This document shows positions 19,410 through 39,817 of a stretch of DNA of 64,000 nucleotides, piece by piece. The stretch is from positions 3,176 to 67,175 of the forward strand of contig CACPDC010000007.1 in assembly GCA_902632595.1 (NCBI GenBank). Direction: 5' to 3'. The notes beneath the pieces are model-generated. The model searched no databases and was not told where the DNA came from. It saw only the letters and a list, made by a program, of their open reading frames with translations. Numbering within the stretch: position 1 is the first letter of the stretch; each line of letters starts with the position of its first letter. This stretch comes from an uncultured SAR116 cluster alpha proteobacterium (GTDB lineage: Bacteria; Pseudomonadota; Alphaproteobacteria; Puniceispirillales; Puniceispirillaceae). The translations under genes were made by a program, and so were the position numbers.

Positions 19410-19829
19410 ATGGAAAAAGATATTTTAGCCGAAATAGAAGAAATAATAGATGAGTTCTCATTTTTCGACGATTGGGCAGATAGATACCAACATTTAATTG
19501 ACCTTGGTAGGAAACTACCAGGCATTTCATGTGAGTATCAAAACAACGCTTATAAGCTATCAGGCTGTCAGTCCACCGTGTTTTTTGTTGCTAAAAAGAC
19601 GGACGAAAATCTAATCCAATTTAAAGCACAGTCTGATGCCGCAATAGTCCAGGGTCTAGTCGCACTTATACTACGCGTTTACTCAGGACGGTCTGCAGAC
19701 GAGATAATTAATACAAGACCCGACTTTTTAAAACAAATTGGGCTAGATAAGCATCTATCTCCTTCTAGAAAAAATGGTTTGGCAGCGATGATTTCAAAAA
19801 TAAAATCATCGGCGATGGAATTAAAGTAA
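19410..19829 (+). CDS. sufE: SufE family cysteine desulfuration protein
   Basis: DRYQHLIDLG, conserved sulfur-acceptor Cys in LSGCQSTVFF, 139 aa. Confidence 0.75.
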   Translation: MEKDILAEIEEIIDEFSFFDDWADRYQHLIDLGRKLPGISCEYQNNAYKLSGCQSTVFFVAKKTDENLIQFKAQSDAAIVQGLVALILRVYSGRSADEIINTRPDFLKQIGLDKHLSPSRKNGLAAMISKIKSSAMELK

Positions 19830-19907
19830 AACCTTTAATTCTACTTTTAATTCATAACTGAAAAATTTTAAATATATTTTCAGGAATTTATCTTAATGAT
19901 TTAAAAG

Positions 19908-20897: not shown

Positions 20898-21141
20898 TTG
20901 AAACTCCTAATAAAAAGTTTATACCATTTACCATTATCCTATCCTTTAGTAATGTGAAATCTATATCTTAATTTTTCATGATATTTGGATGAAGAAAAAG
21001 CTTAGGGCGGGTTTTGATTACTTCATGTCGAATGGACGAAATCATAAAATGGACAGGTGTTTACACAGACCGTTAGATTGGGTTTAATTTAGATTTGACT
21101 TAGAATTGTTGATTAACATTAATCCTATTAAAGGAAAAATA

Positions 21142-22809: not shown

Positions 22810-22888
22810 AAAAGCAAGATGATTATAATTAATTAATACTATTTTTCATACCAGCTAGGTAAGATTTGGTTTATGAACTGCTAGGGCT

Positions 22889-23716
22889 ATGGGTTTTATG
22901 TTAAATAACAAACAAAAAACTGCTGTGATAACCTCATTCAGTAATAACGATATAAAAAAATTACGCTCATTGCATGAACGTAAGTATCGAAAACAGACAG
23001 GTTGGTTTCTTGCAGAAGGTCTACGTATTTGTACAGAGGCATTAAAGCAGGGATTTACTCCACAGATTCTAATTTATGAAGAAGGTCGACACTCAGACCC
23101 TTTAATATCAGACTTAGTTTTTGAATGTGAAAAAGCTGGTGGGAGAGTTTTGCCTGTGAAACGCTCATTACTAGTAAAAGTAAGTAATAAGAATAATCCT
23201 CAAACTGTCGTAGGCGCCTACACACAATTTACAACAAACTTCTTAGACATTAAAACGGAAGATACAAGATGTTGGGTAGCGCTGGACAGGGTTCGTGATC
23301 CCGGAAATTTAGGCACAATTATGAGAACAATGGATGCTGTTGCAGCAGATGGACTTATTCTGATTGATGATTGCACAGATCCATTTTCCGTGGAGTCTGT
23401 ACGTGCCTCAATGGGGGCTATTTTTAGTCTAAAAATTAGCCATTGTACTAGCAACGAATTTTTCTCTTTTAAAAAATTTTTTAACGGACAAATAATTGGA
23501 ACGGCTCTTGACTCAAAAGTTGATTATAGAACGGCTGAATGGAAAAGTCCTTGCATTATTCTTTTGGGAAATGAGCAGTCAGGCTTGTCAGATAAGCTAA
23601 AAGATACATGTGATCAGCTCATAAAGATGCCAATGCTTGGTAGTTCTGATAGCTTGAATCTTGCTGTCGCCTCTGGCATCAGTTTATATGAGTTTCTTCG
23701 TTACCAAGCTGATTAG
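22889..23716 (+). CDS. TrmH/SpoU family RNA 2'-O-methyltransferase
   Basis: SPOUT motifs DRVRDPGNLGTIMRT, LLGNEQSGLS, MPMLGSSDSLNLAVASGISLYE. Confidence 0.8.
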   Translation: MGFMLNNKQKTAVITSFSNNDIKKLRSLHERKYRKQTGWFLAEGLRICTEALKQGFTPQILIYEEGRHSDPLISDLVFECEKAGGRVLPVKRSLLVKVSNKNNPQTVVGAYTQFTTNFLDIKTEDTRCWVALDRVRDPGNLGTIMRTMDAVAADGLILIDDCTDPFSVESVRASMGAIFSLKISHCTSNEFFSFKKFFNGQIIGTALDSKVDYRTAEWKSPCIILLGNEQSGLSDKLKDTCDQLIKMPMLGSSDSLNLAVASGISLYEFLRYQAD

Positions 23717-23756
23717 AATAGATATTAAAAAAAAATAATAAATCTTACTTTTATGT

Positions 23757-24686
23757 CTACAACCCACTCCATCTAGCATATAGCGCTTGTCCAATGGCTC
23801 TAGCCGGTTTCCTTGAAAGTGAATAATCTTCTATAATTGCAATTTCCCCTGACTTTATTTTGCCTCCAAGGGATGCAAAACTGTTTTCCATTGTAGTGTG
23901 AATCGAAATTATTGACATTCTCACAGCATAGATAGTTGCAACCAAAAATAAGGGCGAGGTAGAAATCAGATTTTTGCAGTCAGATAATAAGCGCGGGAGA
24001 TTTTGGTGAAGATGCCACACCTCTCCTCTTGGGCCTCTTCCATATTTTGGAGGGTCTAATATGATACCATCATAGGTATTTTCCCGTCTAATTTCACGCT
24101 GAACAAATTGCGAAGCATCCTCCGTGATAAATCGAATTGGTGCTTTATCTAAGTTACTCAGAGCTCGATTATCAAACGCCAGCTGAATGGCTTTTTTGCT
24201 AGCATCGATGTGAGTAACCTCTGCTCCGGCATTTGCGGCGTGCAAGCTTGCAATTCCGGAATAGGCGAATAGATTTAAAATCTTCGGCGCGCGGTTATTA
24301 ATTTTAATAAATTTTTTTATTTTTTTTTCACACCATTGCCAATGAACAGATTGTTCAGGAAAAAACCCTAAGTGCCTGAAAGGAGTGGGCATAGCAAAAA
24401 AATGAATATCCTCAAATTGCATTTTCCATTTATCTGGTAGTGTGTTTCTTAAACTCCAGCTTCCACCTTTTTCGCTGTCTTTTCCTGATGTGATAAAATG
24501 GCCATCCGCTGACTTCCATTCAGCATTACTGAGTCTTGGTGACCATAAGGCTTGCGCTTCTGGTCTGACAAAACGGTAAGAGCCGAATTTCTCTAATTTT
24601 TGACCATCGCCAGAATCTATTAGTTGATAATCCTGCCACCCGGAGGGATATAAATGTTTTGAAATATTTGATTGCGAAACTCTCAT
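23757..24686 (-). CDS. class I SAM-dependent methyltransferase (RlmI/RlmK-like catalytic domain, no PUA)
   Basis: ILNLFAYSGIASL SAM-binding motif and IILDPPKYGRG motif IV. Confidence 0.65.
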   Translation of the reverse strand: MRVSQSNISKHLYPSGWQDYQLIDSGDGQKLEKFGSYRFVRPEAQALWSPRLSNAEWKSADGHFITSGKDSEKGGSWSLRNTLPDKWKMQFEDIHFFAMPTPFRHLGFFPEQSVHWQWCEKKIKKFIKINNRAPKILNLFAYSGIASLHAANAGAEVTHIDASKKAIQLAFDNRALSNLDKAPIRFITEDASQFVQREIRRENTYDGIILDPPKYGRGPRGEVWHLHQNLPRLLSDCKNLISTSPLFLVATIYAVRMSIISIHTTMENSFASLGGKIKSGEIAIIEDYSLSRKPARAIGQALYARWSGL

Positions 24687-24831
24687 AATTTGTAGTTATG
24701 ACGAACAATATTTAGGTAGACAACCCTTATATTTATGAAAAAATTTGCTTTATTGAACCTTTAATAGGATAAATTAATAAAATTTTTACATTCTAAGCCG
24801 TTTCGCTAAACCAAAAAAATCAGAGACAACA

Positions 24832-25290
24832 ATGGACAAGACTGACAAAAAAATTCTGACTTTATTACAGCAAGACTCAGCGCAGCCTTTATCCGATATA
24901 GCTCGAAAGGTAGGTTTATCTGTAACACCATGTTGGAGGCGAATACAAAAGCTAGAAGAAGACGGCATTATTAGAGGTCGTGTTGCATTACTTGATGCAG
25001 AGAAGCTAGGTTTAGGCATGTCCGTTTTTGTAGCACTAAAAATAACGGAGCACTCCTCAGAATGGCTAAACAATTTTGCTTTAAAAATATCTGAATATGA
25101 TGAAGTTGTGGAGTTTTATCGAATGTCGGGAGATGTTGATTATATGCTTAGAGTTGTGGTGAAAAATATGGCAGCATATGACGCCTTTTATAAAAAATTG
25201 ATATCTGATGTATCCCTAAAAGATGTTAGCTCTTCTTTTGCAATGGAAGAAATTAAATACACTACATCACTTCCTATAAATCGATTATAA
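24832..25290 (+). CDS. lrp: Lrp/AsnC family transcriptional regulator
   Basis: DKTDKKILTLLQQDS..LSDIARKVGLSVTPCWRRIQKLEEDGII HTH plus RAM domain, 152 aa. Confidence 0.88.
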   Translation: MDKTDKKILTLLQQDSAQPLSDIARKVGLSVTPCWRRIQKLEEDGIIRGRVALLDAEKLGLGMSVFVALKITEHSSEWLNNFALKISEYDEVVEFYRMSGDVDYMLRVVVKNMAAYDAFYKKLISDVSLKDVSSSFAMEEIKYTTSLPINRL

Positions 25291-25305
25291 AAACTTTATT
25301 TGAAC

Positions 25306-26316
25306 TTACTTCTCTGCCCAGATAATAGAAGTAAGCTTTTTGACGAAAACCTGTTTTGAAAATCTTTTTTCTTTTATAACCTGTTTTGCTCTTTTCTGAT
25401 ATTTGCTTCTTTCCTGTGGATTTTGTATGAGTGTTTTCAAACAAATTAACATTTCATCGCCGTTAGAAGGTTCAAAAAAAAGTGCATTTTGGCTGCCTTT
25501 GCAAATCCACAAAGGTCCGTTTGTACTAGATGATACAACAGCAACACCAAATTGCATCATTTCAGGCAGTATATAACCAAAAGGCTCGTCAAGAGAGGGG
25601 AGGCAAAAAATATCTAATGAGGGCGCAAATTTTTCTACATCTGTCCAACCAGTAAATCGGACAGGGTTTCCCCTACTTTTTGAAAATGTTCGGAGACTTT
25701 TTGTTAAAGGTCCATCACCAGCAAGAACAAAATCAATTTCAGGGAATTCTTCTTTAATTCTAGCAGCCACGTCAATAAATATTTTAAATCCCTTTTTCTC
25801 AACAAACCGTCCAGCTGCTCCTATCGTTAGCTTTTGTTTTGGTTTAATTTCATTTAAAACTTTTTTTTGTGGTTCAAAATAATGGGGTAAGTGATAGATA
25901 CTATCCTTACATCTGCCAGAGTTTTTGGCTTTCTTAACTGCGTTAGGCGATAAGCAAATTAGGTAGTCCGCATGTTTGAAGTGTTCAGGTTTATCATTAT
26001 GACAAATACCGATTACTTTATCACTATATTTCTTCATAATTTTGCATATAAAACCGTTATGGACAAAAGATATATTAAATGAGTGGTTTTGAAACTGTTT
26101 AATAGGCAACGAAAATCCTCTTCGAATAAGCGTTTTTTGTTGCCACGACATTCTTATATGACGGGGGATGTCTTGGCATTGGTTAAGATTTAACGGCAGT
26201 GGGGAAAAATAAATATTTTCAAGTTGGGGTATAGGAGCAAGAGCGGAAAGATAAGCTTTAAAGGCTTTTTGAATACCCCCTGGTTTATCATCACTTGTAA
26301 CATGTAATATTTTCAT
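25306..26316 (-). CDS. glycosyltransferase family 4 (GT-B, group 1)
   Basis: C-terminal EPFGYILPEMMQFGVAVVSSSTNGP matches the E-x7-E region of GT4 enzymes, 336 aa. Confidence 0.75.
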   Translation of the reverse strand: MKILHVTSDDKPGGIQKAFKAYLSALAPIPQLENIYFSPLPLNLNQCQDIPRHIRMSWQQKTLIRRGFSLPIKQFQNHSFNISFVHNGFICKIMKKYSDKVIGICHNDKPEHFKHADYLICLSPNAVKKAKNSGRCKDSIYHLPHYFEPQKKVLNEIKPKQKLTIGAAGRFVEKKGFKIFIDVAARIKEEFPEIDFVLAGDGPLTKSLRTFSKSRGNPVRFTGWTDVEKFAPSLDIFCLPSLDEPFGYILPEMMQFGVAVVSSSTNGPLWICKGSQNALFFEPSNGDEMLICLKTLIQNPQERSKYQKRAKQVIKEKRFSKQVFVKKLTSIIWAEK

Positions 26317-26334
26317 AAAAACATCTTTTCTAAC

Positions 26335-27240
26335 TCAAGCATATAGCAATACAAGAATGATGGAAATACCAAGCACACCTATACCTATTACCTCAAGCAG
26401 AGTAATTTTTTCTTTTAGAAAAAGCCATGAGAACAAAATTGATATGATTAACTCGATTTGACCGACGGCGCGAACGGCACCAAGATGAAAAATAGCGAAT
26501 GCGAAAAACCAAGCTGCTGTCGAAATAGCTGCAGTTATCCCTATAAAAAAACCAGTCCTCCAATTCTGAAGGCAGAGCATTAATTGAGTAGGCTGTTTAA
26601 AAATAAGATAGCTGCCAAGAATGGCCGTTTGAAGTGAAATTGCAATTGCGGCCGTAAAACTAGCATCTAACATGAGTATATTACCATTTAAAAGGATCGT
26701 TGCTTTGAAGTAAAAAATATTTGCTAACGCAAGACATGCCCCCGAACCAAGTCCTAAAAAATGAGAGGATGAAAAAAACAGATGCGCTTTATTACCATCT
26801 GCAAATTCAACTTTTTGATAGCTTAAAAGCGCAATTCCAAATAAGCCCATAGCAATTGCAAACATAGTTGAGTAGCTCGCAGCATAACCAATTAAAATGG
26901 CCTCTAATAGAGCTGTTTGAAGGATCTCTGTTTTTGAAAGCGCAATTCCAATCGCATAATTTCGATGATTAAACATCATAATTAATAAAATTGTAAAGGC
27001 GATTTGGAGAATAGCTGCGCAGCAAACAAAAACAAAAAATGAGAACGAGATTTCTGGAAGGCTACTGCCAGTTTTAATACATATAGCTACTGTCCACAGC
27101 CAAGCGAATGGTATACCGAAAATGAAACGGCTTAAACTAGCACCCAACTCACCTACACGTGGGATTAACAATTTCTGACAAACAGTGCGCAAGGATTGCG
27201 CAAGTGCAGCGATCAACGCAATAATTGCCCATAATTCCAT
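26335..27240 (-). CDS. DMT superfamily (EamA-like) transporter
   Basis: Ten hydrophobic helices in a 5+5 arrangement, 301 aa. Confidence 0.75.
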   Translation of the reverse strand: MELWAIIALIAALAQSLRTVCQKLLIPRVGELGASLSRFIFGIPFAWLWTVAICIKTGSSLPEISFSFFVFVCCAAILQIAFTILLIMMFNHRNYAIGIALSKTEILQTALLEAILIGYAASYSTMFAIAMGLFGIALLSYQKVEFADGNKAHLFFSSSHFLGLGSGACLALANIFYFKATILLNGNILMLDASFTAAIAISLQTAILGSYLIFKQPTQLMLCLQNWRTGFFIGITAAISTAAWFFAFAIFHLGAVRAVGQIELIISILFSWLFLKEKITLLEVIGIGVLGISIILVLLYA

Positions 27241-27285
27241 TTTTGATTTCTAGTACACTACGTTAAATTAATCTAGGTTAGAGCA

Positions 27286-27876
27286 TTATTTATTTGGCGT
27301 AATTTTTGGGGAAACCGCTACCTCACTTAGGTCTAGCACTTTAGACTTTTTATCCTTTTTAATTGCTATCGCTTCATCCAAGATATTATCAAGATTTTCT
27401 CTAAGAAATTTATTTAAAGTGTCTTCGATGTAGTGTTTAATTTCTTTCGTCAATTTTGTTCCAGATAATGCTTTTTCGTTTTCAATGGGCAAAGAATTGC
27501 ACAAATCTTGGTTTCCTCTTCTCGATATATCCTCTTTTGCACTAGAGATAGCCATTTTTATATCATTCATTACACTGTTAATTTCGGTGACTTTAAATAA
27601 ATTAGGCTTCGACTCTATTTCGCTTTTTTCATCTATTTTTTCTAATAAAACTGCTATTTCTGCGTCTCTTAGGAGTAGTTTAAGCTGATAAATTTGGTTG
27701 ATAATTACCAAATTTAAGTCAAATTTATCGAAAATCTTTGAAAGGGACGAGTTATCAGCACTTAGCTCCTTCCATAAGACATCATTTATAAAACCTGAAT
27801 TCGAGCTAAAAGCCTCTATTGAAGCTATAGTTCTCAAAGTTTTTAAATTATCAAAAATAATTTCATGTTTGCTCAT
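27286..27876 (-). CDS. hypothetical acidic coiled-coil protein, possibly PopZ/DUF2497-like
   Basis: C-terminal IEDTLNKFLRENLDNILDEAI resembles the PopZ C-terminal LKEWLDxNLPxIVE helix. Otherwise low complexity; weak call. Confidence 0.35.
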   Translation of the reverse strand: MSKHEIIFDNLKTLRTIASIEAFSSNSGFINDVLWKELSADNSSLSKIFDKFDLNLVIINQIYQLKLLLRDAEIAVLLEKIDEKSEIESKPNLFKVTEINSVMNDIKMAISSAKEDISRRGNQDLCNSLPIENEKALSGTKLTKEIKHYIEDTLNKFLRENLDNILDEAIAIKKDKKSKVLDLSEVAVSPKITPNK

Positions 27877-28046
27877 TTGTTAATCTCTATCAAAATTACA
27901 AATACGATAATAGTATTAATGCTTTTATTTGACTAGATTAATTTTAATATTTTAAAACATACTACGCCTCTTTTATTGTTAATTGGTTAAGGTTAATTTA
28001 TAACCCGACAAAAGATTTTTAAGAAATATGATTACTAGGAGTATTT

Positions 28047-30149
28047 ATGTCGTTATCATCAAACATTGGTATGTGGCACAAAAAATTGTTTCAAACTAGT
28101 CTTTTTACTCAGAAAATTACACTACTAACTGTTATATTTGCAATTATCTTAGGAATAATAGCTTCATATCTAAATTTTCAGGCCAGATACACAAATTGGC
28201 ATTTGTGGGAACAGAACAAAGCAGAATTTTTCTATAAAGATACTCCTCTATTTACAACTATGGATGCAGGTTATTTTCTTGGGATAGCTGGACACCTTAA
28301 ATCTGGAAAAACCTTAGAAGATTACCAATCCCTGAGAGTATTTCCGACAAAACAAATTCAGGACCCATCGATAAAAAGTCCAGGGCGTTCTGCACCATTG
28401 TTGTCAAAAGTAATAGCGTTTTTCGCCAAAGACGCCTCACCAAAAGAATTGTTGATAGCAGGTAATAAAATGCTTCCTTACACTGCTGCAGTCACTGCAT
28501 TAGCCATTTTTATTGCATTTGGAGTAACGGGTTATTGGATGGAAGGTTCTGTTGCAGCTGCCGGTGGTGGATTATCGATTGTTTATTATTGGAGGTCAGC
28601 TATTGGTAGAATAGATACAGACCAATTAAATTTGGGTCTAATGTATTTTATGTTTGCTATGGTTTTGTGCGCGGGAAGTGCCAAGAAGTTAAGATGGGGA
28701 ATTTTTTTTACTTTTATAGCGGCCCTCTCAGCAAGACTGTTTATGAGTTGGTATGATAAGTCTGAGTTAATAATAATGGCTCTTATTGCTTTTTGCTGGT
28801 TAATTATTGTAAAATCAAAAGACTGGCGGAGACTGATCGTATTTTCCACGGTTTTTATTTTGTTATCAGGCGTAGGTCTGATAAATCCGTTCGCCACAGT
28901 CTACGTGCAAACAGATTTCGGCATTCATAATTTTGTTTTTAATAATGTGATATCTACAGTTTCGGAAGCATCAAGAATAGAGTTTCTTGAAGTTTTGCGC
29001 AGGATGACTGGTTCTATTTTAGTAAGCACTTTATGCCTTCTAGGAATGATAGTTTGGGCTATAAGGCATCCCATAATCGCAATAGCTTACGCACCACTTG
29101 CAGGATTCGCAATGCTCTCCGTAGTATTAGGTAACCGTGCACTTTTTTATTCAGCCCCATTTTTTTGGTTTGGGGGTGCTTATCTCGCTGTGTTGATTAT
29201 GAGAATATGCGTCCATTTAGTTTTTCAACGGTTAGAAGCATTCAAACAAATCATAAGTACATCGGCTTCTGCAACTATCTGTGCAATTCTGATTTTATTT
29301 ATTTGGGTTAATAGCCCAGTCAATCAGTTGGCGCGACCATCAATACCTGTCCCAATTATAAAAGCTTTGGTCGAATTGAAATCTATAGCAGGACAAGAAA
29401 AAAGTGTTTTAGCCAGTTGGTGGGATTATGGATATGCCTCAATGCTGTTTAACGGGCTTCCAACATTTACTGACCCAGGGCAGCATTTAAGTAATTCAAA
29501 TTACTTTATTGCTGATTCATTATTATCGAATAACCAGAGCCACTCAGCAGATACTCTTCGTTTTCTTGGAAGTGGCGGATTAACAACTTTGAAAGAAAAC
29601 ATTGATGATAGAGATACCCTTTTAAAAAAAATAAAATCAAATAGAGATGAGCAAGGTCCTGTTGTATATCTGATGTTAACAGATCAAATGACTAGTTGGA
29701 TGCCATCTATCTCGAAAATAGGAAATTGGGATATTGATTTAGGCGTACCAATTCCTGCAAAAGGCCATAAACAAGGCCAACAATTGTCCTACAATTTTTT
29801 AAATTGCACGGATACCAAAACACCAGGAATAGTAAAATGCAACAACTCGATTATAAATTTGAATGAAGGTAAAATTGATGGAAACCCTGTATTAAATTTA
29901 GTTGCTGAAGCGCATGGAGGGCAATTCGTTGGTAGTAAGGGTTACAAGCAGAGTGAGTTGAACGTATTTCAGATTATGAAGAATGATAAAGGCAAATCGG
30001 CCAAGGTAGCTATTCTTCATAGAGATTTGTTTTTTAGTAGTTTCAATCAAATGTTTCATTTAGGAAGATATGATATAGAGAATTTCAAGTTGGTATACGA
30101 TGGATATCCGAACGTTCGTATCTTTAAATTGCTCCCAAAGTCCGGGTAA
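28047..30149 (+). CDS. pglB: PglB/STT3-type oligosaccharyltransferase homologue
   Basis: About 13 TM helices plus a soluble C-terminal domain. Motifs in order: FTTMDAGYF, IGRIDTDQL (DxD), STVSEA (TIxE/SVSE), SWWDYGY, MPSISKI (MxxI), and a PglB-like C-terminus FNQMFHLGRYD. Confidence 0.8.
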   Translation: MSLSSNIGMWHKKLFQTSLFTQKITLLTVIFAIILGIIASYLNFQARYTNWHLWEQNKAEFFYKDTPLFTTMDAGYFLGIAGHLKSGKTLEDYQSLRVFPTKQIQDPSIKSPGRSAPLLSKVIAFFAKDASPKELLIAGNKMLPYTAAVTALAIFIAFGVTGYWMEGSVAAAGGGLSIVYYWRSAIGRIDTDQLNLGLMYFMFAMVLCAGSAKKLRWGIFFTFIAALSARLFMSWYDKSELIIMALIAFCWLIIVKSKDWRRLIVFSTVFILLSGVGLINPFATVYVQTDFGIHNFVFNNVISTVSEASRIEFLEVLRRMTGSILVSTLCLLGMIVWAIRHPIIAIAYAPLAGFAMLSVVLGNRALFYSAPFFWFGGAYLAVLIMRICVHLVFQRLEAFKQIISTSASATICAILILFIWVNSPVNQLARPSIPVPIIKALVELKSIAGQEKSVLASWWDYGYASMLFNGLPTFTDPGQHLSNSNYFIADSLLSNNQSHSADTLRFLGSGGLTTLKENIDDRDTLLKKIKSNRDEQGPVVYLMLTDQMTSWMPSISKIGNWDIDLGVPIPAKGHKQGQQLSYNFLNCTDTKTPGIVKCNNSIINLNEGKIDGNPVLNLVAEAHGGQFVGSKGYKQSELNVFQIMKNDKGKSAKVAILHRDLFFSSFNQMFHLGRYDIENFKLVYDGYPNVRIFKLLPKSG

Positions 30150-30241
30150 CTTGAAAGTGTGCATTAGGTATTAGTTGAGTGCCACTCATTTAGGAACACT
30201 TTTATGGCTGGTAATAAAATTGCTGGTAGAAATAAATATAT

Positions 30242-30318
30242 GGCCCCGTAGCTCATCAGGATAGAGCGCGAGATTCCTAATCCCGAGGTAACAGGTTCGA
30301 GTCCTGTCGGGGTCACCA
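30242..30318 (+). tRNA. tRNA-Arg (anticodon CCT)
   Basis: Hand-folded cloverleaf: acceptor GGCCCCG/CGGGGTC (one G-U), D arm GCTC/GAGC, anticodon loop TTCCTAA, T arm ACAGG-TTCGAGT-CCTGT, encoded CCA. One A-C mismatch in the anticodon stem. Confidence 0.85.
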
Positions 30319-30349
30319 TTAACAGAAAAGTGAGAATAATTTTGGCATA

Positions 30350-31189
30350 TCAATTATTCGATTTTTCAGGATTTGGAGTAAATACTCGCTGTCCGTCAAT
30401 TTCGAATTGTTGGATAGCTGATTGACCTTTATCTGAAATAAGCCAGTCAATAAATAATTGACCCTGTTCAGACTTTACCGAAGGGCATTTTTTTTTGTCA
30501 ATAAGCATAACCCCATAAGGGTTAAATAATTGGCTGTCCCCCTCTAAAACAATCTTATAATCTAGCTTATTTGAGAACGAATGCCAGCTGGCTCTGTCAA
30601 CAATAGTGTAAGCATTTAGACCAATTGCTATATTCAGTGTCGCTCCCATGCCTGAACCAGTCTCGAAGTACCATTTTCCAGAATCAATCTCTGGATTAAA
30701 AGCAATTTCTTCCCAAATTGTTAGCTCTTTACTATGGGTACCAGAATTATCACTTCGAGATACAAATTTAGCACCAGTCACAATTATTTTTTTAAATGCT
30801 AATCCAATATCTTGGATTCCAACTATGCCTGCAGGGTCATTACTCGAACCTACCAGTATAAAGTCATTGTACATTACATTATAGCGCTTATTAGCAAAGC
30901 CATCAGCGACAAATTTTTCCTCATCTTTTGGACTATGAACAAATAAGACATCACCGTCACAATTACGGGCATTTTTTATAGCAGCACCAGTTCCAACAGC
31001 AACTACGTTCACGTTTATTCCTGTATCTGATCTGAATAATGGCAGAATATAGTCATAGAAGCCAGAATTTTTGGTTGAAGTTGTTGATTGTACTAATATG
31101 GATTTATTTGACGCAAATGCCGATAGTGGAAAGAAAAGTGTTATTGCTAGATAAGTAATAAAGTACAAATTTTTTGAATTATTTTTCAT
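30350..31189 (-). CDS. periplasmic substrate-binding protein, TupA-like (tungstate/oxyanion PBP family)
   Basis: Signal peptide then ILVQSTTSTKNSGFYDYILPLF and AVGTGAAIKNARNGD-like segment, typical of TupA-type binders. The start could also be the ATG at 31207. Confidence 0.6.
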   Translation of the reverse strand: MKNNSKNLYFITYLAITLFFPLSAFASNKSILVQSTTSTKNSGFYDYILPLFRSDTGINVNVVAVGTGAAIKNARNCDGDVLFVHSPKDEEKFVADGFANKRYNVMYNDFILVGSSNDPAGIVGIQDIGLAFKKIIVTGAKFVSRSDNSGTHSKELTIWEEIAFNPEIDSGKWYFETGSGMGATLNIAIGLNAYTIVDRASWHSFSNKLDYKIVLEGDSQLFNPYGVMLIDKKKCPSVKSEQGQLFIDWLISDKGQSAIQQFEIDGQRVFTPNPEKSNN

Positions 31190-31396
31190 AAAGATTACAG
31201 CTAACATTAAGTAGATAATAAAAATTAACTAAAAATATAAAAATATTAAGACAAAACTATGAAATCAAATTTGCAGATGCAAATGATAAAATACTATATT
31301 TTTTTAATTTTTTTTCCTATTACAATCTTTAAATAAAAAAAAATGAATATCTGTATTTTAATACTCACTGAGTGTGAGTAAGAAAAAGTAAACTAA

Positions 31397-32677
31397 ATGA
31401 ATAAAAAAAATTTTTTTAATGTGCAGTCGAATCTAGGTAGTATTGACCATATTCAAGCTGGAATATTTGACATGAATGGCATAATGCGGGGTAAAAGATT
31501 ACCAGCAACCTCATATCAAAAATTAATTGAAAGAGGAATTCAAATCCCATTTTCAGCGCAAAATATAGATATTTATGGTAGTGATATAGAAAGTAGCAAA
31601 TTTGTTTTTAAAAGCGGTGATAAAGATGGTACAGCAATATGGCAAGGTACACCTTTGGTAGTTTTAAATCATTTGCCCAAACCCATTCTTTTAATGCCAT
31701 TAAGCTTAACATCGAATAATGGTGAGCTTTTTGAAGGTTGCCCAAGAGCATTTCTTAAGACTGTATTGCAAAGAATAAGAGATAAACAATTTATATTTAA
31801 GATTGGAATAGAACTCGAATTTTGCATCTTTTCGGGCGATAATCCGAACTCTATTTTTTCAGAACCTCAATTACTATCCTTATTGGAATTAGATTCCATA
31901 GACCATTTACTTCGGGATATTTCTCATATCATGGAGCAACTTAATATTCAGTGGGAGTCCATATTGTCGGAAGCAGGAATAGGCCAAATAGAAATCGTAT
32001 TGGCTCCTTGTGATGATTTGTGTCATTTAGCAGATTGCATCCTTATTCTAAAACATAGTCTAACGGCTTATGCGATCTCAAAAGGCGTATTTATATCTTT
32101 TGAGGCTAAACCAAAAAAACGTATTTTAGGAAATGGGTTGCATTGCCATATATCATTAGAAAATTTTCAGTCTGAAAATCTATTTGCGAAAGACGACAAT
32201 ATTTTTAGAGCAGCAATAGGGTCGATTCTGTCAATATTAGAGTCAGCAATGCTAATTTTAGCACCACTATCTAACTCTTACAGTAGATTACAGGATAATA
32301 GTCATGCTCCAATAAATATTGGTTGGGGCTTTGACAATAGGACAGTTGCTGTGCGCGTTCCAAATGCTTCTCTTTCAGCAAAAAGATTGGAACTGAGAGT
32401 GGCTGGTGCGGATAGCAATCCTTATTTACTTTTTGCCATATTAGTTTCTGCAATATTGGATGGTATTGATGAGATGGTTAAGGCACCAAAACCAGTTTCA
32501 GGTAACGGGTATGAAGCGAATTTAAAAAGTTTGCCCCGCGACCTTAAAACAGCGATAATTCAATTTGAAAAATCAAAAAAAATACGTCAATGCATGCCGA
32601 CAATATTAAGAGAAATGTTCTTAGCAACCAAAAAGCAGGAAATGCGAACAGTGATTTCAGGAGATTTTGATGAGTAA
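31397..32677 (+). CDS. glutamine synthetase family protein (gamma-glutamyl-polyamine synthetase-like, divergent paralogue)
   Basis: GS catalytic motifs IGIELEFCIF, NGLHCHISL, NSYSRL, GFDNRTVAVRVP, RLELRVAGADSNPYL. Confidence 0.75.
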   Translation: MNKKNFFNVQSNLGSIDHIQAGIFDMNGIMRGKRLPATSYQKLIERGIQIPFSAQNIDIYGSDIESSKFVFKSGDKDGTAIWQGTPLVVLNHLPKPILLMPLSLTSNNGELFEGCPRAFLKTVLQRIRDKQFIFKIGIELEFCIFSGDNPNSIFSEPQLLSLLELDSIDHLLRDISHIMEQLNIQWESILSEAGIGQIEIVLAPCDDLCHLADCILILKHSLTAYAISKGVFISFEAKPKKRILGNGLHCHISLENFQSENLFAKDDNIFRAAIGSILSILESAMLILAPLSNSYSRLQDNSHAPINIGWGFDNRTVAVRVPNASLSAKRLELRVAGADSNPYLLFAILVSAILDGIDEMVKAPKPVSGNGYEANLKSLPRDLKTAIIQFEKSKKIRQCMPTILREMFLATKKQEMRTVISGDFDE

Positions 32678-33638
32678 GGACAAAAAAATATACTCAAATC
32701 CTAGCATTCTCTCCGATCAGAGTTGGAAAAATATTGACCCAGAAAAACGTTTTTTTGAGCCAACATACTCTGGTGCAACAAGTTTTTTAAGACGACCTTA
32801 TTCGATTGCTTTTGATAGTGCGGACATTGTTGTAGTTGGAATACCTTTTGATGGTGCCACAACGTATCGCCCGGGTTGCAGATTGGGGCCCAGAGCGGTA
32901 AGGGCTGCTTCTGTTCAATTAGCTGAACTACCGTCTTTTCCATTTGGTGTAGATCCTTTTTCATCATTGAAAGTAATTGATTCAGGTGATTTTTTTCTTA
33001 ATCCACACCAGCCTGAAACAATTATTTCAGGCATCTATGAACAATCCTCAGCTATAATTGGTTCTGGAGCATCTTTGCTCGCAATTGGGGGTGACCATTT
33101 CATTAGCTATCCTCTATTAAAAGCTCATGCAAAGGCTTTCGGGCCAGTTTCTTTACTGCAGTTTGACGCACATTGTGATACCTGGCAATCTGAAGGCGAG
33201 TTTGATCATGGCACTATGTTTCTTCGTGCTATTAAAGAAGGCCTTATAGACGTTGAAAGTTCGATGCAGGTTGGTATTAGAACGCATAACGATATAAATG
33301 TCGGAATAAAACAAATTACTTCCCCTCAGATACATGAAATGGGGACATCCGCTGTTTTAGAGCAGATACAAGCTCATCTTAAAGGTCGGAAAGTTTATTT
33401 GAGTTTTGATATAGATGTATTAGATCCAGCCTTCGCTCCTGGAACAGGAACCCCTGTATCTGGAGGGTTAGCGTCTTGGCAAGTCCTTCAAATACTGCGT
33501 GGTCTCACTTCATTAAACATCATAGGTTTTGATCTTGTTGAAGTGAGCCCGCCATTTGACCATGCAGAAATTACTTCGATAGCCGCCGCAACTATAATCC
33601 ATGATTGGATTTGTTTGAAAGCTCAACAAATGAGTTAA
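32670..33638 (+). CDS. speB: ureohydrolase family enzyme (agmatinase/guanidino-acid hydrolase)
   Basis: Mn-ligand motifs GGDHFISYP, FDAHCDTW, SFDIDVLDPAFAPGTGTP, DLVEVSPPFD. The ATG overlaps the stop of the upstream gene by 8 nt. Confidence 0.85.
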   Translation: MSKDKKIYSNPSILSDQSWKNIDPEKRFFEPTYSGATSFLRRPYSIAFDSADIVVVGIPFDGATTYRPGCRLGPRAVRAASVQLAELPSFPFGVDPFSSLKVIDSGDFFLNPHQPETIISGIYEQSSAIIGSGASLLAIGGDHFISYPLLKAHAKAFGPVSLLQFDAHCDTWQSEGEFDHGTMFLRAIKEGLIDVESSMQVGIRTHNDINVGIKQITSPQIHEMGTSAVLEQIQAHLKGRKVYLSFDIDVLDPAFAPGTGTPVSGGLASWQVLQILRGLTSLNIIGFDLVEVSPPFDHAEITSIAAATIIHDWICLKAQQMS

Positions 33639-34927
33639 ATCTTAAAATAGTCTTTTAATTTAAACCATGTCATGCCAAGAGCGAGAATAGGTGTTCGCAA
33701 CGGGCCGCCTGGAAAAGGCAGATGTTGAATCTTAGCTAATTGGTTGAATCTTTGCTCTCTTCCAGTTATAGCATCGCTGACAATACTTCCTGCTATTTGA
33801 GAAAATGCAACACCATGTCCGGAATATCCCTGCACATAAATTGCTGTATCAGAAATTTTACCAAAATCTGGTAATCGATTGACTGTAATTCCTATTCTCC
33901 CAGACCAAGCCTGCAATATTTTTTTATTAGAAAGATTTGGAAATACAGCTCTCATTCGTTTCTTTAAATCCGCTTCAACATTTATTGGATCTCTATTAAG
34001 ATAACTTGCGCGACCGCCAAAAATCATTCGTTTCTGTTTATCAATACGAAAATAATTCAAGGCTGTGTTTCCATCAGCTATAGCTGCTTTTGATGGAATC
34101 AATCTTTTGATTTCAGAATCACTTAAAGGCTCTGTTGCCATTACAGAAGAAGTGACTTGTGCTATCCTTCTGCGCATTTGTTTAGGAGCGACAGACCCAA
34201 GATAAGCATTGCCGCAAATAACAAGGTTTTTGGATCGTATCACATGCCCTTCTTTTGTGATAAGTTTGTTTTTATTATTTGCAGTTTTTATGGAGCAAAT
34301 GCGGGTTTTAGTATATATTTTCACGCCGGTGTTTTCCGCCGCATTTGAAATGCCTATTAAGTATTTTAGCGGGTGCAAATGTCCGCTGCCAGCATCATAC
34401 AAACCTCCGATATACGCATCTGAGCGTACGTAATCAAACAATAAAGATTTATTTTCTAAGGCGCGTAGCTTAGAATATCCATGAGCCTCAAATGTTTTTT
34501 GATATTCTTCTAAATATCGCATGTGACCTTTATGGATAGCGGTATGTACATATCCCCATTGAATGTCACATTTTATATTATATTTTTTTATTCTTTCATT
34601 AATAAGATTAGGACCCTCAATACCTACTTGCCACATATCCTTTTTAAATTCAGAATCTATATATTTGGAGAGTTTTTCGAAACCCGATGACCAACCTTGA
34701 CAAATCTGCCCTCCATTTCGACCGGAACCACCGTCGCCTATTTTTCCAGCCTCAAAAAGGCAAACATCATACCCTTTTTCACCAAGAGATAAAGCTGTTG
34801 AAATACCTGTAAGTCCGCCCCCAATGATTGCAATATCACATTTGATGTCTTGAGCCACTTGCCCAAGAAATTCAGGAGGAGAAACATCCAATTGATAGAT
34901 TGATTTTGAAATATGGCTATTTGACAT
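33635..34927 (-). CDS. FAD-dependent oxidoreductase (gamma-glutamylputrescine oxidase PuuB-like, DAO family)
   Basis: N-terminal CDIAIIGGGLTGISTALSLGEKGYDVCLFEA dinucleotide fold, 430 aa, DAO-family layout. Confidence 0.75.
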   Translation of the reverse strand: MSNSHISKSIYQLDVSPPEFLGQVAQDIKCDIAIIGGGLTGISTALSLGEKGYDVCLFEAGKIGDGGSGRNGGQICQGWSSGFEKLSKYIDSEFKKDMWQVGIEGPNLINERIKKYNIKCDIQWGYVHTAIHKGHMRYLEEYQKTFEAHGYSKLRALENKSLLFDYVRSDAYIGGLYDAGSGHLHPLKYLIGISNAAENTGVKIYTKTRICSIKTANNKNKLITKEGHVIRSKNLVICGNAYLGSVAPKQMRRRIAQVTSSVMATEPLSDSEIKRLIPSKAAIADGNTALNYFRIDKQKRMIFGGRASYLNRDPINVEADLKKRMRAVFPNLSNKKILQAWSGRIGITVNRLPDFGKISDTAIYVQGYSGHGVAFSQIAGSIVSDAITGREQRFNQLAKIQHLPFPGGPLRTPILALGMTWFKLKDYFKI

Positions 34928-35099
34928 TATTAATAGACTTTTAGCTTGTAAGGGTTCATTTTTCTTTTAAATCATTTTATCTGATAGTGTATAATGTATA
35001 CATTAATAAAACAGCCTTATAAAAATAACTTATTATTAGTAGTATATAATAATTTTATTATTGAGGAAGAGTAAAAAACTTGGAAAAGGATGGTGCCTT

Positions 35100-36455
35100 G
35101 TGCCGATTCAAACAGATATTCAATACTTTGAAGAACAATATCACCTACCACCATTCTCTGATTTTAAATCTCTAAAAAAAGAGGGTACGCGTATTATTAC
35201 CCATGCAGACGGTCATATCATTTATGATAGTGATGGTAACGCTATTTTAGACGCTATGGCAGGTTTATGGTGTGTTAATGTAGGATATGGAAGAGAAGAG
35301 TTGGTAGAAGCAGCCGCACAACAAATGCAAAAGCTGCCATACTACAATAGTTTTTTTAAGACTAGTAATGAGGCTGTAGCAAGGTTATCTGCAAAACTTG
35401 TTTCTATAGCGCCTGAGCATTTAAATCATATAATTTATGCTAATTCAGGCTCAGAAGCAAATGACACCATCATTAGACTTGTACGACATTATTGGAGTTT
35501 AAAGGGGCAACCTCAAAGAAGGGTGATTATCGGTCGAGAATATGGTTACCATGGGTCTACTATAATGGCAGCTAGTATGGGTGGAATGAAAGCAATGCAT
35601 GAACAATCTGCAAACGAAGCAGATTTTGAGCATATAAGGCCCCCCTATGGATTTTTATATCAAGGAAATCAGACAGAGCGCCAATTTGCTGAGAGTTCAG
35701 CTCGCCTTTTAAAAGAGAAAATTTTGGAAATTGGCGCTGATAAAGTCGCCGCATTCGTAGCAGAACCAGTTCAAGGTGCGGGCGGTGTTATTATACCACC
35801 AGACGGTTATTTTGACCATATTCAAAAAATTTGTGCTGAATTCGGTATATTATTTATTGCAGATGAGGTGATAACGGGTTTTGGACGCACTGGAAATTGG
35901 TTTGCAAGCCAAACAATGAATTTAAAGCCTGATGTGGTGACTCTAGCAAAGGGCTTAACATCTGGGTATATGCCAATGTCTGCCGTGCTTGTGAGTGACA
36001 AAATTGCTGATCACTTGATTAATGAAGGAGGGGAATTTTATCACGGGTTTACCTATTCAGGTCACCCTGTTTCCGCTGCAGTTGCGCTAGCTAACCTAGA
36101 CCTTATTGAAAAAGATGGTCTGATTGAGCGTGTAAGGGAAGTCACGGCTCCTTATCTTACAAAAGAAATTAAGCGATTAGATAGCCATCCACTTGTGGGT
36201 GAAACGCGTAGTTTTGGTTTGCTGGCTTGTGTTGAACTTGTCAAACATAAATCTGGACCAGTTCTTTTTGATCCAATTGGTGAGGTGGGTATGAAATGTC
36301 GTGACCATGCAATTAATAGCGGCTTAATGGTTCGCGCAGTGCGTGATGGAATGATTTTATCACCCCCGTTAAGCTTTGAGAAAACTGATATTGATATCAC
36401 ACTTGAAAAATTACAGCAGGCACTAGATGCCACCTATTCTGAACTTATGAAGTGA
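35100..36455 (+). CDS. class III (omega) aminotransferase, putrescine/beta-alanine--pyruvate type
   Basis: GLWCVNVGYGR, SGSEANDT, FIADEVITGFGRTG, LAKGLTSGYMP (PLP Lys). Start ambiguous: GTG at 35100 or TTG at 35061. Confidence 0.85.
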   Translation: MPIQTDIQYFEEQYHLPPFSDFKSLKKEGTRIITHADGHIIYDSDGNAILDAMAGLWCVNVGYGREELVEAAAQQMQKLPYYNSFFKTSNEAVARLSAKLVSIAPEHLNHIIYANSGSEANDTIIRLVRHYWSLKGQPQRRVIIGREYGYHGSTIMAASMGGMKAMHEQSANEADFEHIRPPYGFLYQGNQTERQFAESSARLLKEKILEIGADKVAAFVAEPVQGAGGVIIPPDGYFDHIQKICAEFGILFIADEVITGFGRTGNWFASQTMNLKPDVVTLAKGLTSGYMPMSAVLVSDKIADHLINEGGEFYHGFTYSGHPVSAAVALANLDLIEKDGLIERVREVTAPYLTKEIKRLDSHPLVGETRSFGLLACVELVKHKSGPVLFDPIGEVGMKCRDHAINSGLMVRAVRDGMILSPPLSFEKTDIDITLEKLQQALDATYSELMK

Positions 36456-36465
36456 GTATTTAATT

Positions 36466-37806: not shown

Positions 37807-37831
37807 AAAATAATTAAAAAACCTCAGAAAG

Positions 37832-39634: not shown

Positions 39635-39817
39635 ATGCTTCTATTTATTTATATGGTTAGTAGAATAACTATGGCGGTTTTTGATTAAATTAGGCAAGGA
39701 AAATTATAAATTATATCTTTGAGTTGAAGACATAAATTTATTTTGAATAATTTTTCAAATTAACAAACACCAATTTTTTTCCAACCGCGGTTTATTATTT
39801 GAGAGGAAGCATTTTCG

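What the first reader, a model, noticed from the sequence alone, without database searches (positions are those of the whole stretch)
28047..30149. Complete Campylobacter-type N-oligosaccharyltransferase (PglB/STT3) homologue on an alphaproteobacterial-looking backbone
The 700-aa product has about 13 predicted TM helices followed by a soluble C-terminal domain. It carries, in the correct order, every signature of bacterial PglB. These are 'EFFYKDTPLFTTMDAGYF' (compare C. lari 'EFFFNDQLMITTNDGYAF', catalytic D56) and 'IGRIDTDQL' (compare 'SGYYDTDML', D154/D156). Also present are EL5 'STVSEA' (TIxE/SVSE motif, E319), 'SWWDYGY' (WWDYG sequon-binding motif), 'MPSISKI' (bacterial MxxI motif) and a PglB-like C-terminus 'FNQMFHLGRYD'. 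PglB-dependent N-glycosylation is established for Campylobacterota and some Desulfovibrio-type bacteria. The flanking genes here (ChrR/sigma-E, GapR, DUF1013, UPF0262-infA-maf-rng-yacG) are alphaproteobacterial hallmarks. The comparison strings come from my memory of the C. lari sequence, not from a search.
Basis: partly seen in the sequence, partly recalled or inferred. Interest (0 to 1): 0.72.

Follow-up and report, generated by a model that had tools for sequence, protein, structure and literature searches.

The report
PglB-like N-glycosylation enzyme in SAR116 bacteria
The gene encodes an intact but very divergent relative of the Campylobacter enzyme that attaches sugar chains to protein asparagines, and it belongs to an undescribed family common in SAR116 marine Alphaproteobacteria, where this type of protein glycosylation has not been reported.

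Summary
The 700-aa ORF at 28047..30149 (+) is real. It is a full-length member of the STT3/PglB/AglB oligosaccharyltransferase superfamily. C. lari PglB is the best match by sequence profile (E 1e-28) and by fold (AlphaFold pLDDT 88; Foldseek TM 0.72, E 2e-24). Every catalytic or substrate-contact residue of PglB that I could map is present and invariant across the family: D73, R183, D190/D192, E307, R364, WWDYGY 458-463.

The gene is resident, not foreign. Its GC matches the window, dN/dS is about 0.09, and about 40 species-level SAR116/Puniceispirillaceae genomes carry orthologues that form one clade.

The MxxI equivalent is M548-T-S-W551, not 'MPSISKI'; Trp replaces Ile in 36 of 37 family members. 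The model also shows 11, not 13, membrane helices.

There is no pgl gene cluster. Linkage to glycan genes is loose: a GT4 glycosyltransferase and an EamA transporter here, and an adjacent nucleotide-sugar epimerase or a nearby Wzy_C protein in other subclades.

The most likely function is periplasmic transfer of an undecaprenyl-PP-linked glycan to Asn. No activity, donor or acceptor has been shown. No paper I could search links PglB to Alphaproteobacteria, although JGI's automatic annotation already names some members. I rate it a new variant of a known kind.

The parts
28047..30149 (+). Gene for a 700-aa STT3/PglB-family oligosaccharyltransferase (GT-C fold). It is the subject of the finding.
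   Evidence: ORF. PF21436, E 2e-12. PDB PglB, E 1e-12 for the single sequence and 1e-28 for the family profile. AlphaFold pLDDT 88.3; Foldseek against 5ogl_A gives TM 0.72, E 2e-24. dN/dS 0.08-0.10.
28122..29312 (+). Membrane domain, aa 26-422. Predicted 11 TM helices: 26-56; 132-159, 164-181; 192-211, 215-235, 239-257, 260-274; 324-340, 342-361, 363-392, 397-422. Long external loops: EL1 (57-131) and the EL5 equivalent (275-323).
   Evidence: DSSP of the AlphaFold model. Hydropathy. Motif spacing compared with ClPglB. PF02516 does not match.
28263..28265 (+). D73, equivalent to ClPglB D56 (binds the acceptor Asn amide and the metal ion).
   Evidence: Aligned. D in 37/37 alpha and 34/34 other bacterial relatives. 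Role taken from PMC7226087.
28593..28622 (+). R183-S-A-I-G-R-I-D190-T-D192. R183 = ClPglB R147; D190/D192 = D154/D156 (the DxD metal site).
   Evidence: Invariant in alignment A1 and in all 71 sequences. Coordinates verified.
28956..28967 (+). T304-V-S-E307, the EL5 TIxE-type motif. E307 = ClPglB E319 (catalytic; binds the Asn amide and the metal).
   Evidence: T304 and E307 are invariant. Coordinates verified.
29001..29003 (+). R319, in the column of ClPglB R331 (binds the acidic residue at sequon position -2). Present here but variable in the family.
   Evidence: the alpha column holds R13, S9, N3, G3, Q2 and others. Role from PMC7226087.
29136..29138 (+). R364 = ClPglB R375 (binds the pyrophosphate of the lipid-linked oligosaccharide).
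   Evidence: Invariant. Role.
29319..30146 (+). C-terminal periplasmic alpha/beta domain, aa 425-700.
   Evidence: AlphaFold secondary structure. Matches the C. jejuni PglB C-terminal domain 3aag by sequence (E 6e-10 single, 1e-14 profile) and by fold.
29418..29435 (+). W458-W-D-Y-G-Y463. The WWD part forms the pocket for the +2 Ser/Thr hydroxyl. Y463 = ClPglB Y468, which contacts the C2 N-acetyl group of the reducing-end sugar.
   Evidence: Identical to ClPglB 463-468. Invariant in all 71 sequences. Roles.
29688..29699 (+). M548-T-S-W551, the family's counterpart of the bacterial MxxI / eukaryotic-archaeal DK motif. W551 occupies the column of ClPglB I572.
   Evidence: Ungapped register. Column table: alpha W 36/37; other bacterial relatives K 34/34; C. 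lari I. Coordinates verified.
29805..29840 (+). C587 and C598, an invariant cysteine pair in the periplasmic domain. I infer a disulfide, which would fit a periplasmic location.
   Evidence: Invariant in A1 and A2. The disulfide itself is inference.
25306..27876 (-). Divergently transcribed neighbours: a 196-aa ORF with no family (27286..27876), an EamA/DMT transporter (26335..27240) and a GT4-type glycosyltransferase (25306..26316). Possible glycan-pathway partners; membership is uncertain.
   Evidence: Pfam and NCBIfam. Synteny with the OST is kept only in relatives of at least about 46% OST identity. EamA or GT homologues appear sporadically near the OST in distant loci.

Best explanation
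The gene encodes a functional single-subunit oligosaccharyltransferase of the STT3/PglB/AglB superfamily. It sits in the inner membrane of a SAR116 (Puniceispirillaceae-type) marine alphaproteobacterium.

Proposed mechanism, by homology with PglB:
- The 11-helix membrane domain binds an undecaprenyl-pyrophosphate-linked glycan. R364 sits on the pyrophosphate, and Y463 on the C2 N-acetyl group of the reducing-end sugar.
- D73, D190, D192 and E307 hold a divalent cation, and D73 and E307 activate the carboxamide of an acceptor Asn.
- W458-W459-D460 of the periplasmic domain bind the hydroxyl of Ser/Thr at +2. W551 closes that pocket where Campylobacter has Ile and eukaryotes have Lys.
- The glycan is then transferred en bloc to Asn of exported proteins in the periplasm.
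- In this particular protein R319 may still favour an acidic residue at -2.

Shown here: homology, fold, conservation of the active site, purifying selection, and residence in the lineage.

Inferred, not shown: enzymatic activity, the lipid carrier, the glycan, the sequon, and the acceptor proteins.

The donor glycan is probably borrowed from a general envelope-glycan pathway, because the gene is not inside a dedicated pgl cluster.
For: - Pfam PF21436 is above its cut-off in the window protein and in 50/50 family members.
- The family profile against PDB gives C. lari PglB E 1.2e-28, far ahead of human STT3B at 8e-4.
- AlphaFold pLDDT is 88.3 and pTM 0.86. Foldseek ranks PglB 5ogl/6gxc/3rce first (TM 0.69-0.72, E 1e-22 to 1e-24), then yeast and human STT3 and archaeal AglB.
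- ClPglB residues D56, R147, D154, D156, E319, R375, W463, W464, D465, G467 and Y468 are 100% conserved in 37 alpha sequences and 34 other bacterial relatives. Their roles are taken from PMC7226087.
- dN/dS is 0.08-0.10 against five relatives. Gene GC is 0.369 against 0.375 for the window.
- About 40 species-level SAR116/alphaproteobacterial genomes carry it, and they form one clade.
- A nucleotide-sugar epimerase gene lies immediately adjacent on the same strand in 10 of 42 assessable loci, on either side of the OST. A Wzy_C gene lies within 2.5 kb in 10 loci.
- An invariant Cys pair sits in the C-terminal domain.
Against: - There is no biochemical or glycoproteomic evidence for any member.
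- No pglC/pglA/pglK-type cluster occurs in the 64-kb window or next to the distant homologues examined.
- The protein scores far below NCBI's PglB equivalog cut-off (80 against 1300 bits).
- The membrane domain is too divergent for PF02516.
- The Ser/Thr-pocket residue is Trp. I found no characterised OST with Trp at this position, so acceptor specificity could differ.
- The EL5 Tyr293 of ClPglB has no clear counterpart in the alignment.
- The residue proximities in the active site were read from alignments. I could not inspect the model coordinates.
Confidence: 0.7

Rival explanations
1. The enzyme mainly hydrolyses the lipid-linked oligosaccharide and releases free oligosaccharides into the periplasm, for example as osmolytes in seawater. 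Protein N-glycosylation would be minor or absent.
For: From my own knowledge, not tested here: C. jejuni PglB releases free oligosaccharides with the same active site, in an osmolarity-dependent way. The organism is marine. No dedicated acceptor or pgl cluster is linked to the gene.
Against: The peptide-binding elements are invariant under strong purifying selection: the WWD motif, the M548..W551 helix, and D73/E307, which hold the Asn amide. That is hard to explain if no peptide is bound. However, the WWDYG motif is also reported to be needed for hydrolysis in Campylobacter, so this argument is not decisive.
Confidence: 0.12
2. It is a neo-functionalised GT-C enzyme. It keeps the STT3 catalytic core but transfers the glycan to a different acceptor: a non-canonical sequon, another amino acid, or a non-protein envelope component.
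For: There is a family-specific Trp at the pocket position that is Ile or Lys in all characterised OSTs. The membrane domain is divergent and has two fewer helices. The -2 reader position is variable. A Wzy_C (O-antigen-ligase-type) protein recurs nearby.
Against: All residues that bind the Asn carboxamide and the +2 hydroxyl are invariant. The top 21 structural neighbours are N-OSTs or PglB domains; other GT-C enzymes (AftA, DPY19, ArnT) start at rank 22 with E >= 4e-5. The 11-helix form and the short D-to-E spacing are shared with Deferribacter-type homologues. The Deferribacter desulfuricans enzyme is listed among characterised OTases, citing Mills 2016, in PMC6025236.
Confidence: 0.1
3. 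The gene is a recent horizontal acquisition from Campylobacterota, or an assembly or contamination artefact, and not a true alphaproteobacterial gene.
For: PglB is classically a Campylobacterota enzyme. One SAR116 single-cell genome (L003) shows a mosaic identity pattern around the gene.
Against: GC equals the backbone. The same gene sits in the same syntenic position in several independent SAR116 genomes. Family members diverge down to 29% identity within alphaproteobacterial genomes and form one clade that excludes C. lari. Identity to C. lari PglB is only about 18%.
Confidence: 0.02
4. It is an inactive relic that keeps the fold but has lost its function.
For: It is an orphan with no pgl cluster. 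It scores low against the curated PglB and STT3 models.
Against: dN/dS is about 0.09. The reading frame is intact in more than 100 homologues, and every catalytic residue is invariant.
Confidence: 0.02

Closest known systems
Campylobacter lari / C. jejuni PglB (undecaprenyl-diphosphooligosaccharide-protein glycotransferase; PDB 3RCE, 5OGL, 6GXC, 3AAG)
   Same: - Best match by sequence profile and by fold over the full length.
- Same domain order: a membrane domain followed by a periplasmic domain.
- Matching residues: D56, R147, D154xD156, T316..E319, R375, WWDYGY, and (in this protein) R331. The C-terminal FNQMF/YIQMF segment also aligns.
   Different: - About 18% identity.
- 80 bits against the 1300-bit equivalog cut-off.
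- Trp instead of Ile572 in the MxxI motif.
- 48 fewer residues, equal to two fewer TM helices, between the DxD motif and EL5, and a longer EL1.
- No surrounding pgl cluster.
- The host is a free-living marine alphaproteobacterium.
PglB-type OST homologues of Deferribacter, Thermodesulfobacteria, Desulfurellales/Hippea and SAR324. The Deferribacter desulfuricans enzyme is listed among characterised OTases, citing Mills et al. 2016, in PMC6025236.
   Same: - Nearest non-alpha relatives by sequence, 23-27% identity.
- Same short spacing between DxD and the EL5 Glu, which implies the same 11-helix topology.
- Same invariant catalytic set.
   Different: - These have Lys (34/34) where the alpha family has Trp, so they are M/LxxK and DK-like.
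- They form a separate clade in a rough NJ tree.
- They come mostly from thermophilic or anaerobic lineages.
Eukaryotic STT3 and archaeal AglB (catalytic subunits of OST)
   Same: Same superfamily and fold (TM 0.53-0.61). Same D, DxD/E, E and WWDYG logic.
   Different: The sequence relation is much weaker (profile E 8e-4 or worse; no AglB hit). They carry a DK motif with Lys. They have 13 TM helices, use dolichol-linked donors, and in eukaryotes form multi-subunit complexes.

Membership tests
STT3/PglB/AglB oligosaccharyltransferase superfamily (CAZy GT66, GT-C fold) | Significant match to the family's curated core-domain model | tested here: met
   PF21436 at 48.1 bits against a cut-off of 23. 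50/50 family members match.
STT3/PglB/AglB oligosaccharyltransferase superfamily (CAZy GT66, GT-C fold) | Multi-pass membrane domain followed by a soluble extracytoplasmic domain, with the OST fold | tested here: met
   AlphaFold pLDDT 88. The top 21 Foldseek hits are all PglB, STT3 or AglB entries or PglB domains, with TM up to 0.72.
STT3/PglB/AglB oligosaccharyltransferase superfamily (CAZy GT66, GT-C fold) | Catalytic acidic residues: the EL1 Asp, the DxD/E motif, and the EL5 Glu | tested here: met
   D73, D190/D192 and E307 align to ClPglB D56, D154/D156 and E319. They are invariant in 71 sequences.
STT3/PglB/AglB oligosaccharyltransferase superfamily (CAZy GT66, GT-C fold) | WWDYG motif | tested here: met
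   W458-W-D-Y-G462 is identical and invariant.
STT3/PglB/AglB oligosaccharyltransferase superfamily (CAZy GT66, GT-C fold) | 13 transmembrane helices | tested here: not met
   The model and the spacing indicate 11 helices (3+4+4). ClPglB has two more between EL2 and EL5. This was read from the secondary structure, not from coordinates, so confidence is moderate.
STT3/PglB/AglB oligosaccharyltransferase superfamily (CAZy GT66, GT-C fold) | Match to the classical STT3 N-terminal (membrane) Pfam model PF02516 | tested here: not met
   No hit at E <= 1 for the window protein. Only 2/50 members hit, weakly (E 4e-4).
Campylobacter-type PglB (NCBIfam NF050801 equivalog) | Score above the curated equivalog cut-off | tested here: not met
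   79.7 bits against a cut-off of 1300. Only aa 294-506 align in the best stretch.
Campylobacter-type PglB (NCBIfam NF050801 equivalog) | MxxI motif, with Ile contacting the +2 Thr | tested here: not met
   The homologous positions read M548-T-S-W551. Trp is present in 36/37 alpha members.
Campylobacter-type PglB (NCBIfam NF050801 equivalog) | Arg that reads the acidic -2 residue of D/E-X-N-X-S/T (ClPglB R331) | tested here: inconclusive
   R319 is present in the window protein, but the column is variable in the family (R13, S9, N3, G3, Q2 and others). EL5 alignment is less certain than for the other motifs.
Campylobacter-type PglB (NCBIfam NF050801 equivalog) | Embedded in a pgl gene cluster (pglC, A, J, H, I, K, D, E, F) | tested here: not met
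   No such cluster is in the window or in the contexts of relatives. Only a generic GT4, an EamA transporter and a PMT_2 protein occur here, and an epimerase or Wzy_C elsewhere. Scattered pgl genes elsewhere in the genome cannot be excluded.
Campylobacter-type PglB (NCBIfam NF050801 equivalog) | Demonstrated transfer of an Und-PP-linked glycan to Asn | not testable with these tools
   Needs heterologous reconstitution or glycoproteomics.

The most novel reading that the evidence does not exclude
SAR116 is one of the abundant bacterioplankton lineages of the surface ocean. On this reading it runs a general N-linked protein glycosylation system built on a previously unrecognised class of minimal OST. 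That OST would have 11 TM helices, and its Trp-for-Ile/Lys substitution in the Ser/Thr pocket would give it an acceptor specificity different from every characterised OST.
Probability: 0.25. Interest if true: 0.8.

Novelty: new variant of a known kind. Interest (0 to 1): 0.6.

Why it matters
In the papers I could search, OST-dependent N-glycosylation in bacteria is treated as a trait of Campylobacterota, some Desulfovibrio, and a few vent bacteria.

A conserved, selected and apparently active OST family across SAR116 would extend that trait to free-living marine Alphaproteobacteria. It would imply N-glycoproteins on the envelopes of very abundant ocean bacteria. That bears on phage and grazer recognition, and on the glycoprotein fraction of marine organic matter.

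For glycoengineering, the family offers single-subunit OSTs with a smaller membrane core, a novel Trp pocket residue and a naturally variable -2 reader position. These are the features that determine sequon specificity.

The alphaproteobacterial host does not by itself say anything about the origin of eukaryotic STT3. The family is much closer to PglB than to STT3.

Tried and rejected
- Exact-protein context look-up for the window protein found nothing on record. I used the 82%-identical relative instead.
- The promoter and terminator scan of 27200..30500 gave counts at the shuffle expectation (12 against 12.9; 2 against 2.0). No regulatory claim is made.
- I tested whether the window's neighbours (GT4, EamA, the 196-aa ORF, PBP, PMT_2) are functionally linked to the OST. 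Synteny holds only in relatives with at least about 46% OST identity, so it may just reflect shared genome order.
- Pfam scans of 30 other window ORFs found only housekeeping genes and no pglC/pglK/pglA-like genes.
- The antisense ORF at 28586..28897 (103 aa) lies inside the OST gene. I treat it as spurious.
I repeated it with 50 members.
- Seven literature searches paired PglB, STT3 or AglB with Alphaproteobacteria, SAR116 or Puniceispirillum, and with 11 TM helices. None found a relevant paper. The only SAR116 hit concerns O-oligosaccharyltransferases of SAR11 and Prochlorococcus. Mills et al. 2016 is not in the held library.
- I could not read the AlphaFold coordinates. Spatial proximity of W551 to the WWD motif is therefore inferred from alignment register and secondary structure only.
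Full report
**1. Observation.**
The ORF at 28047..30149 (+) is present exactly as described. It starts with ATG, ends with TAA and encodes 700 aa. Its GC content (0.369) matches the window (0.375). A 103-aa antisense ORF inside it (28586..28897) is almost certainly spurious.

**2. Family assignment.**
- Pfam gives one significant hit: PF21436, the STT3/PglB/AglB core domain (aa 453-564, 48 bits against a cut-off of 23). The classical STT3 membrane-domain model PF02516 does not hit.
- NCBI's PglB equivalog model matches only partially, at 79.7 bits against a cut-off of 1300. The protein is therefore not a PglB equivalog.
- Against PDB sequences the only real hits are C. lari PglB (3RCE, 5OGL, 6GXC; E about 1e-12) and the C. 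jejuni PglB C-terminal domain.
- With a profile of 112 full-length family members (alignment A1), C. lari PglB improves to E 1.2e-28. Human STT3B reaches only 8e-4, and no archaeal AglB passes 0.01.
- An AlphaFold2 model built on A1 is confident (pLDDT 88.3, pTM 0.86).
- Foldseek against the PDB ranks the three C. lari PglB structures first (TM 0.69-0.72, E 1e-22 to 1e-24). Yeast and human STT3 follow (TM 0.56-0.61), then A. fulgidus AglB (0.50-0.56). Other GT-C enzymes (AftA, DPY19, ArnT) come only after that.

**3. Residue-level test.**
I rebuilt the C. lari PglB sequence from the HMMER output. Its numbering reproduces the literature positions D56, R147, D154, D156, Y293, E319, R331, R375, W463, Y468, H485 and I572. 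I then aligned it with 37 alphaproteobacterial sequences (including the window) and 34 other bacterial relatives.

The columns for D56, R147, D154, D156, E319, R375, W463, W464, D465, G467 and Y468 are 100% conserved in both groups. In the window protein they correspond to D73, R183, D190, D192, E307, R364, W458, W459, D460, G462 and Y463.

The roles of these residues come from the review PMC7226087:
- D56 and E319 bind the acceptor Asn amide.
- Together with R147, D154 and D156 they form the metal site.
- The WWD motif binds the +2 Ser/Thr hydroxyl.
- R375 binds the pyrophosphate.
- Y468 binds the C2 N-acetyl group of the first sugar.

The MxxI equivalent is M548-T-S-W551, not 'MPSISKI'. The register is ungapped and unambiguous: window Y541..M548..W551-M552-P553 against ClPglB Y562..M569..I572-M573-P574.

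This pocket position is Trp in 36/37 alpha sequences, Lys in 34/34 of the other bacterial relatives, and Ile in C. lari. The review notes that a fairly bulky residue is needed here: Ile in PglB, Lys in the DK motif. I found no characterised OST with Trp at this position.

R319 occupies the column of R331, which reads the acidic -2 residue. That column is variable in the family (R13, S9, N3, G3, Q2 and others), so any -2 rule would be member-specific.

**4. Topology.**
The model's helices are:
- 26-56
- EL1, 57-131
- 132-159 and 164-181
- D190xD192
- 192-211, 215-235, 239-257 and 260-274
- EL5, with T304..E307
- 324-340, 342-361, 363-392 and 397-422
- the periplasmic domain

This gives 3+4+4 = 11 helices, consistent with hydropathy. 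C. lari PglB has six hydrophobic segments (TM4-TM9) and 163 residues between D156 and E319. The alpha family has a median of 115 residues there, and the other non-Campylobacter relatives have 125.

An odd helix count keeps the C-terminal domain periplasmic. The 11-helix form is therefore shared with the Deferribacter, Thermodesulfobacteria, Desulfurellales and SAR324 homologues and is not unique to this family. I found no mention of it in the searchable literature. I could not inspect coordinates, so confidence here is moderate.

**5. Who carries it.**
- The protein search returned more than 190 homologues from 100% down to 35% identity. Almost all come from marine metagenomes and MAGs.
- A scan of one genome per GTDB species found 228 loci. 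About 40 of the top 80 are SAR116, Puniceispirillaceae or 'Alphaproteobacteria' genomes at 29-73% identity.
- The next tier, at 23-27% identity, is SAR324, Desulfurellales/Hippea, Deferribacter, Thermodesulfatator, Thermodesulfobacterium, Caldimicrobium and a Myxococcota MAG.
- In a rough NJ tree without support values, the alpha sequences form a single clade. It is separate from that group and from C. lari.
- In a library of 1.84 billion cluster representatives, the family profile finds 364 proteins at E <= 1e-30 and 2688 at E <= 1e-3.
- The window itself is from a low-GC SAR116 lineage. Its flanking genes are up to 99% identical in protein sequence to those of SAR116 single-cell genomes.
- dN/dS against five relatives is 0.08-0.10. 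dS is near or beyond saturation for the more distant ones.

Recent transfer, contamination and pseudogene explanations are therefore rejected.

**6. Context.**
In the window and its close relatives the OST gene is divergently adjacent to a three-gene unit on the minus strand: a 196-aa ORF without family, an EamA transporter and a GT4 glycosyltransferase. A PMT_2 (ArnT-like GT-C) gene lies about 9 kb upstream. This arrangement is kept only among relatives with at least about 46% OST identity, so it is weak evidence for a functional link.

An unbiased clustering of neighbours across 45 alpha loci, with Pfam and NCBIfam identification, shows three recurring neighbours:
- An extended-SDR nucleotide-sugar epimerase/dehydratase (PF01370; GalE/TviC-like, below the equivalog cut-offs). 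It lies immediately adjacent on the same strand in 10 of 42 assessable loci, upstream in 7 and downstream in 3.
- A Wzy_C (O-antigen-ligase-type) protein within 2.5 kb in 10 loci.
- A convergent acyl-CoA ligase adjacent in 7 loci.

Another subclade has GFO/DegT, UDP-glucose dehydrogenase, a nucleotidyltransferase and a phosphomutase within 10 kb. No locus shows a pgl-type cluster, and the rest of the window is housekeeping.

The picture is an 'orphan' OST loosely tied to envelope-glycan metabolism. This resembles the scattered pgl genes of Helicobacter pullorum (PMC6025236).

**7. Mechanism and rivals.**
The best-supported explanation is an active single-subunit OST that transfers an Und-PP-linked glycan with a 2-acetamido reducing-end sugar to Asn in periplasmic proteins. 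The steps are inferred from PglB.

What is shown: homology, fold, an invariant active site, selection, and lineage residence.

What is not shown: activity, donor, sequon, and acceptors.

The main rivals are:
- A role mostly in releasing free oligosaccharides. This is known for C. jejuni PglB from my own knowledge and was not tested here.
- A shifted acceptor specificity caused by the Trp pocket and the divergent membrane domain.

**8. Novelty.**
Characterised bacterial N-OSTs in the papers I could read are from Campylobacter, Helicobacter pullorum, Desulfovibrio, Nitratiruptor, Sulfurovum and Deferribacter. Seven full-text searches found no paper that links PglB, STT3 or AglB with Alphaproteobacteria, SAR116 or Puniceispirillum.

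NCBI annotates the family as 'hypothetical protein'. JGI/IMG's automatic pipeline already labels several members as undecaprenyl- or dolichyl-diphosphooligosaccharide-protein glycotransferase. The homology is thus machine-recognised but, as far as I can tell, undescribed. The library lacks most subscription-journal papers, so an existing description cannot be ruled out.

I rate it a new variant of a known kind: a distinct alphaproteobacterial clade of PglB-like OSTs with an MxxW pocket motif and a reduced membrane core. Interest is 0.6.

Noticed in passing
window 28122..29312 (aa 26-422); also loci L043-L081: The OST membrane domain appears to have 11 rather than 13 TM helices. Two helices are missing between the DxD motif and EL5: 115 residues here against 163 in C. 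lari PglB. The short form is shared by homologues in Deferribacter, Thermodesulfobacteria, Desulfurellales/Hippea and SAR324. I found no mention of it in the literature I searched.
   Followed up: partly
L003 (SAR116 SAG AH-287-O21) against window 18000..40100: The identity pattern is mosaic. Proteins upstream of the OST are 91-99% identical to the window's (FTHFS 95, AsnC 99, GT4 91, EamA 94). The 196-aa ORF drops to 62% and the OST to 72%, and downstream genes are 77-89%. This suggests a recombination boundary near 27.3 kb, or allelic replacement of the OST region.
   Followed up: partly
loci L011, L012, L015, L019, L020, L021, L024, L026, L032, L037: In other SAR116 subclades a GalE/TviC-like nucleotide-sugar epimerase gene lies directly adjacent to the OST gene on the same strand (4-43 nt overlap to a 76-nt gap), sometimes upstream and sometimes downstream. 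That pattern argues for functional coupling rather than inherited gene order.
   Followed up: partly
L010, L014, L015, L017, L018, L021, L022, L023, L082, L084: A protein of about 425 aa with a Wzy_C (O-antigen ligase / O-OTase-type) domain lies within 2.5 kb of the OST gene. In L082 and L084 the order is FGGY kinase, OST, acyl-CoA ligase, Wzy_C. N- and O-type glycan transferases may be co-located.
   Followed up: no
window 27286..27876 (-): A 196-aa hydrophilic ORF is divergently transcribed from the OST gene across a 170-bp AT-rich spacer. It has no Pfam or NCBIfam match. It evolves much faster than its neighbours (39-62% identity where flanking genes are 75-94%).
   Followed up: no
L028, L029, L031, L036, L038, L039: In the most divergent alpha subclade the OST gene follows a GHMP-kinase gene, 70-106 bp upstream on the same strand. 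By its sequence I judge it IspE-like; Pfam gives only GHMP kinase. A TPR-protein gene lies about 1 kb upstream.
   Followed up: no
window 17729..19222 (-): A second GT-C enzyme (PMT_2 domain, ArnT-like, 497 aa) lies about 9 kb upstream of the OST. Its synteny with the OST is kept only in close relatives.
   Followed up: no
window 31397..37806: Downstream of the OST lies a cluster with two glutamine-synthetase-like genes, an arginase-family gene, a FAD oxidase and a class-III aminotransferase. It looks like a polyamine or gamma-glutamyl-amine catabolic module and seems unrelated to the finding.
   Followed up: no
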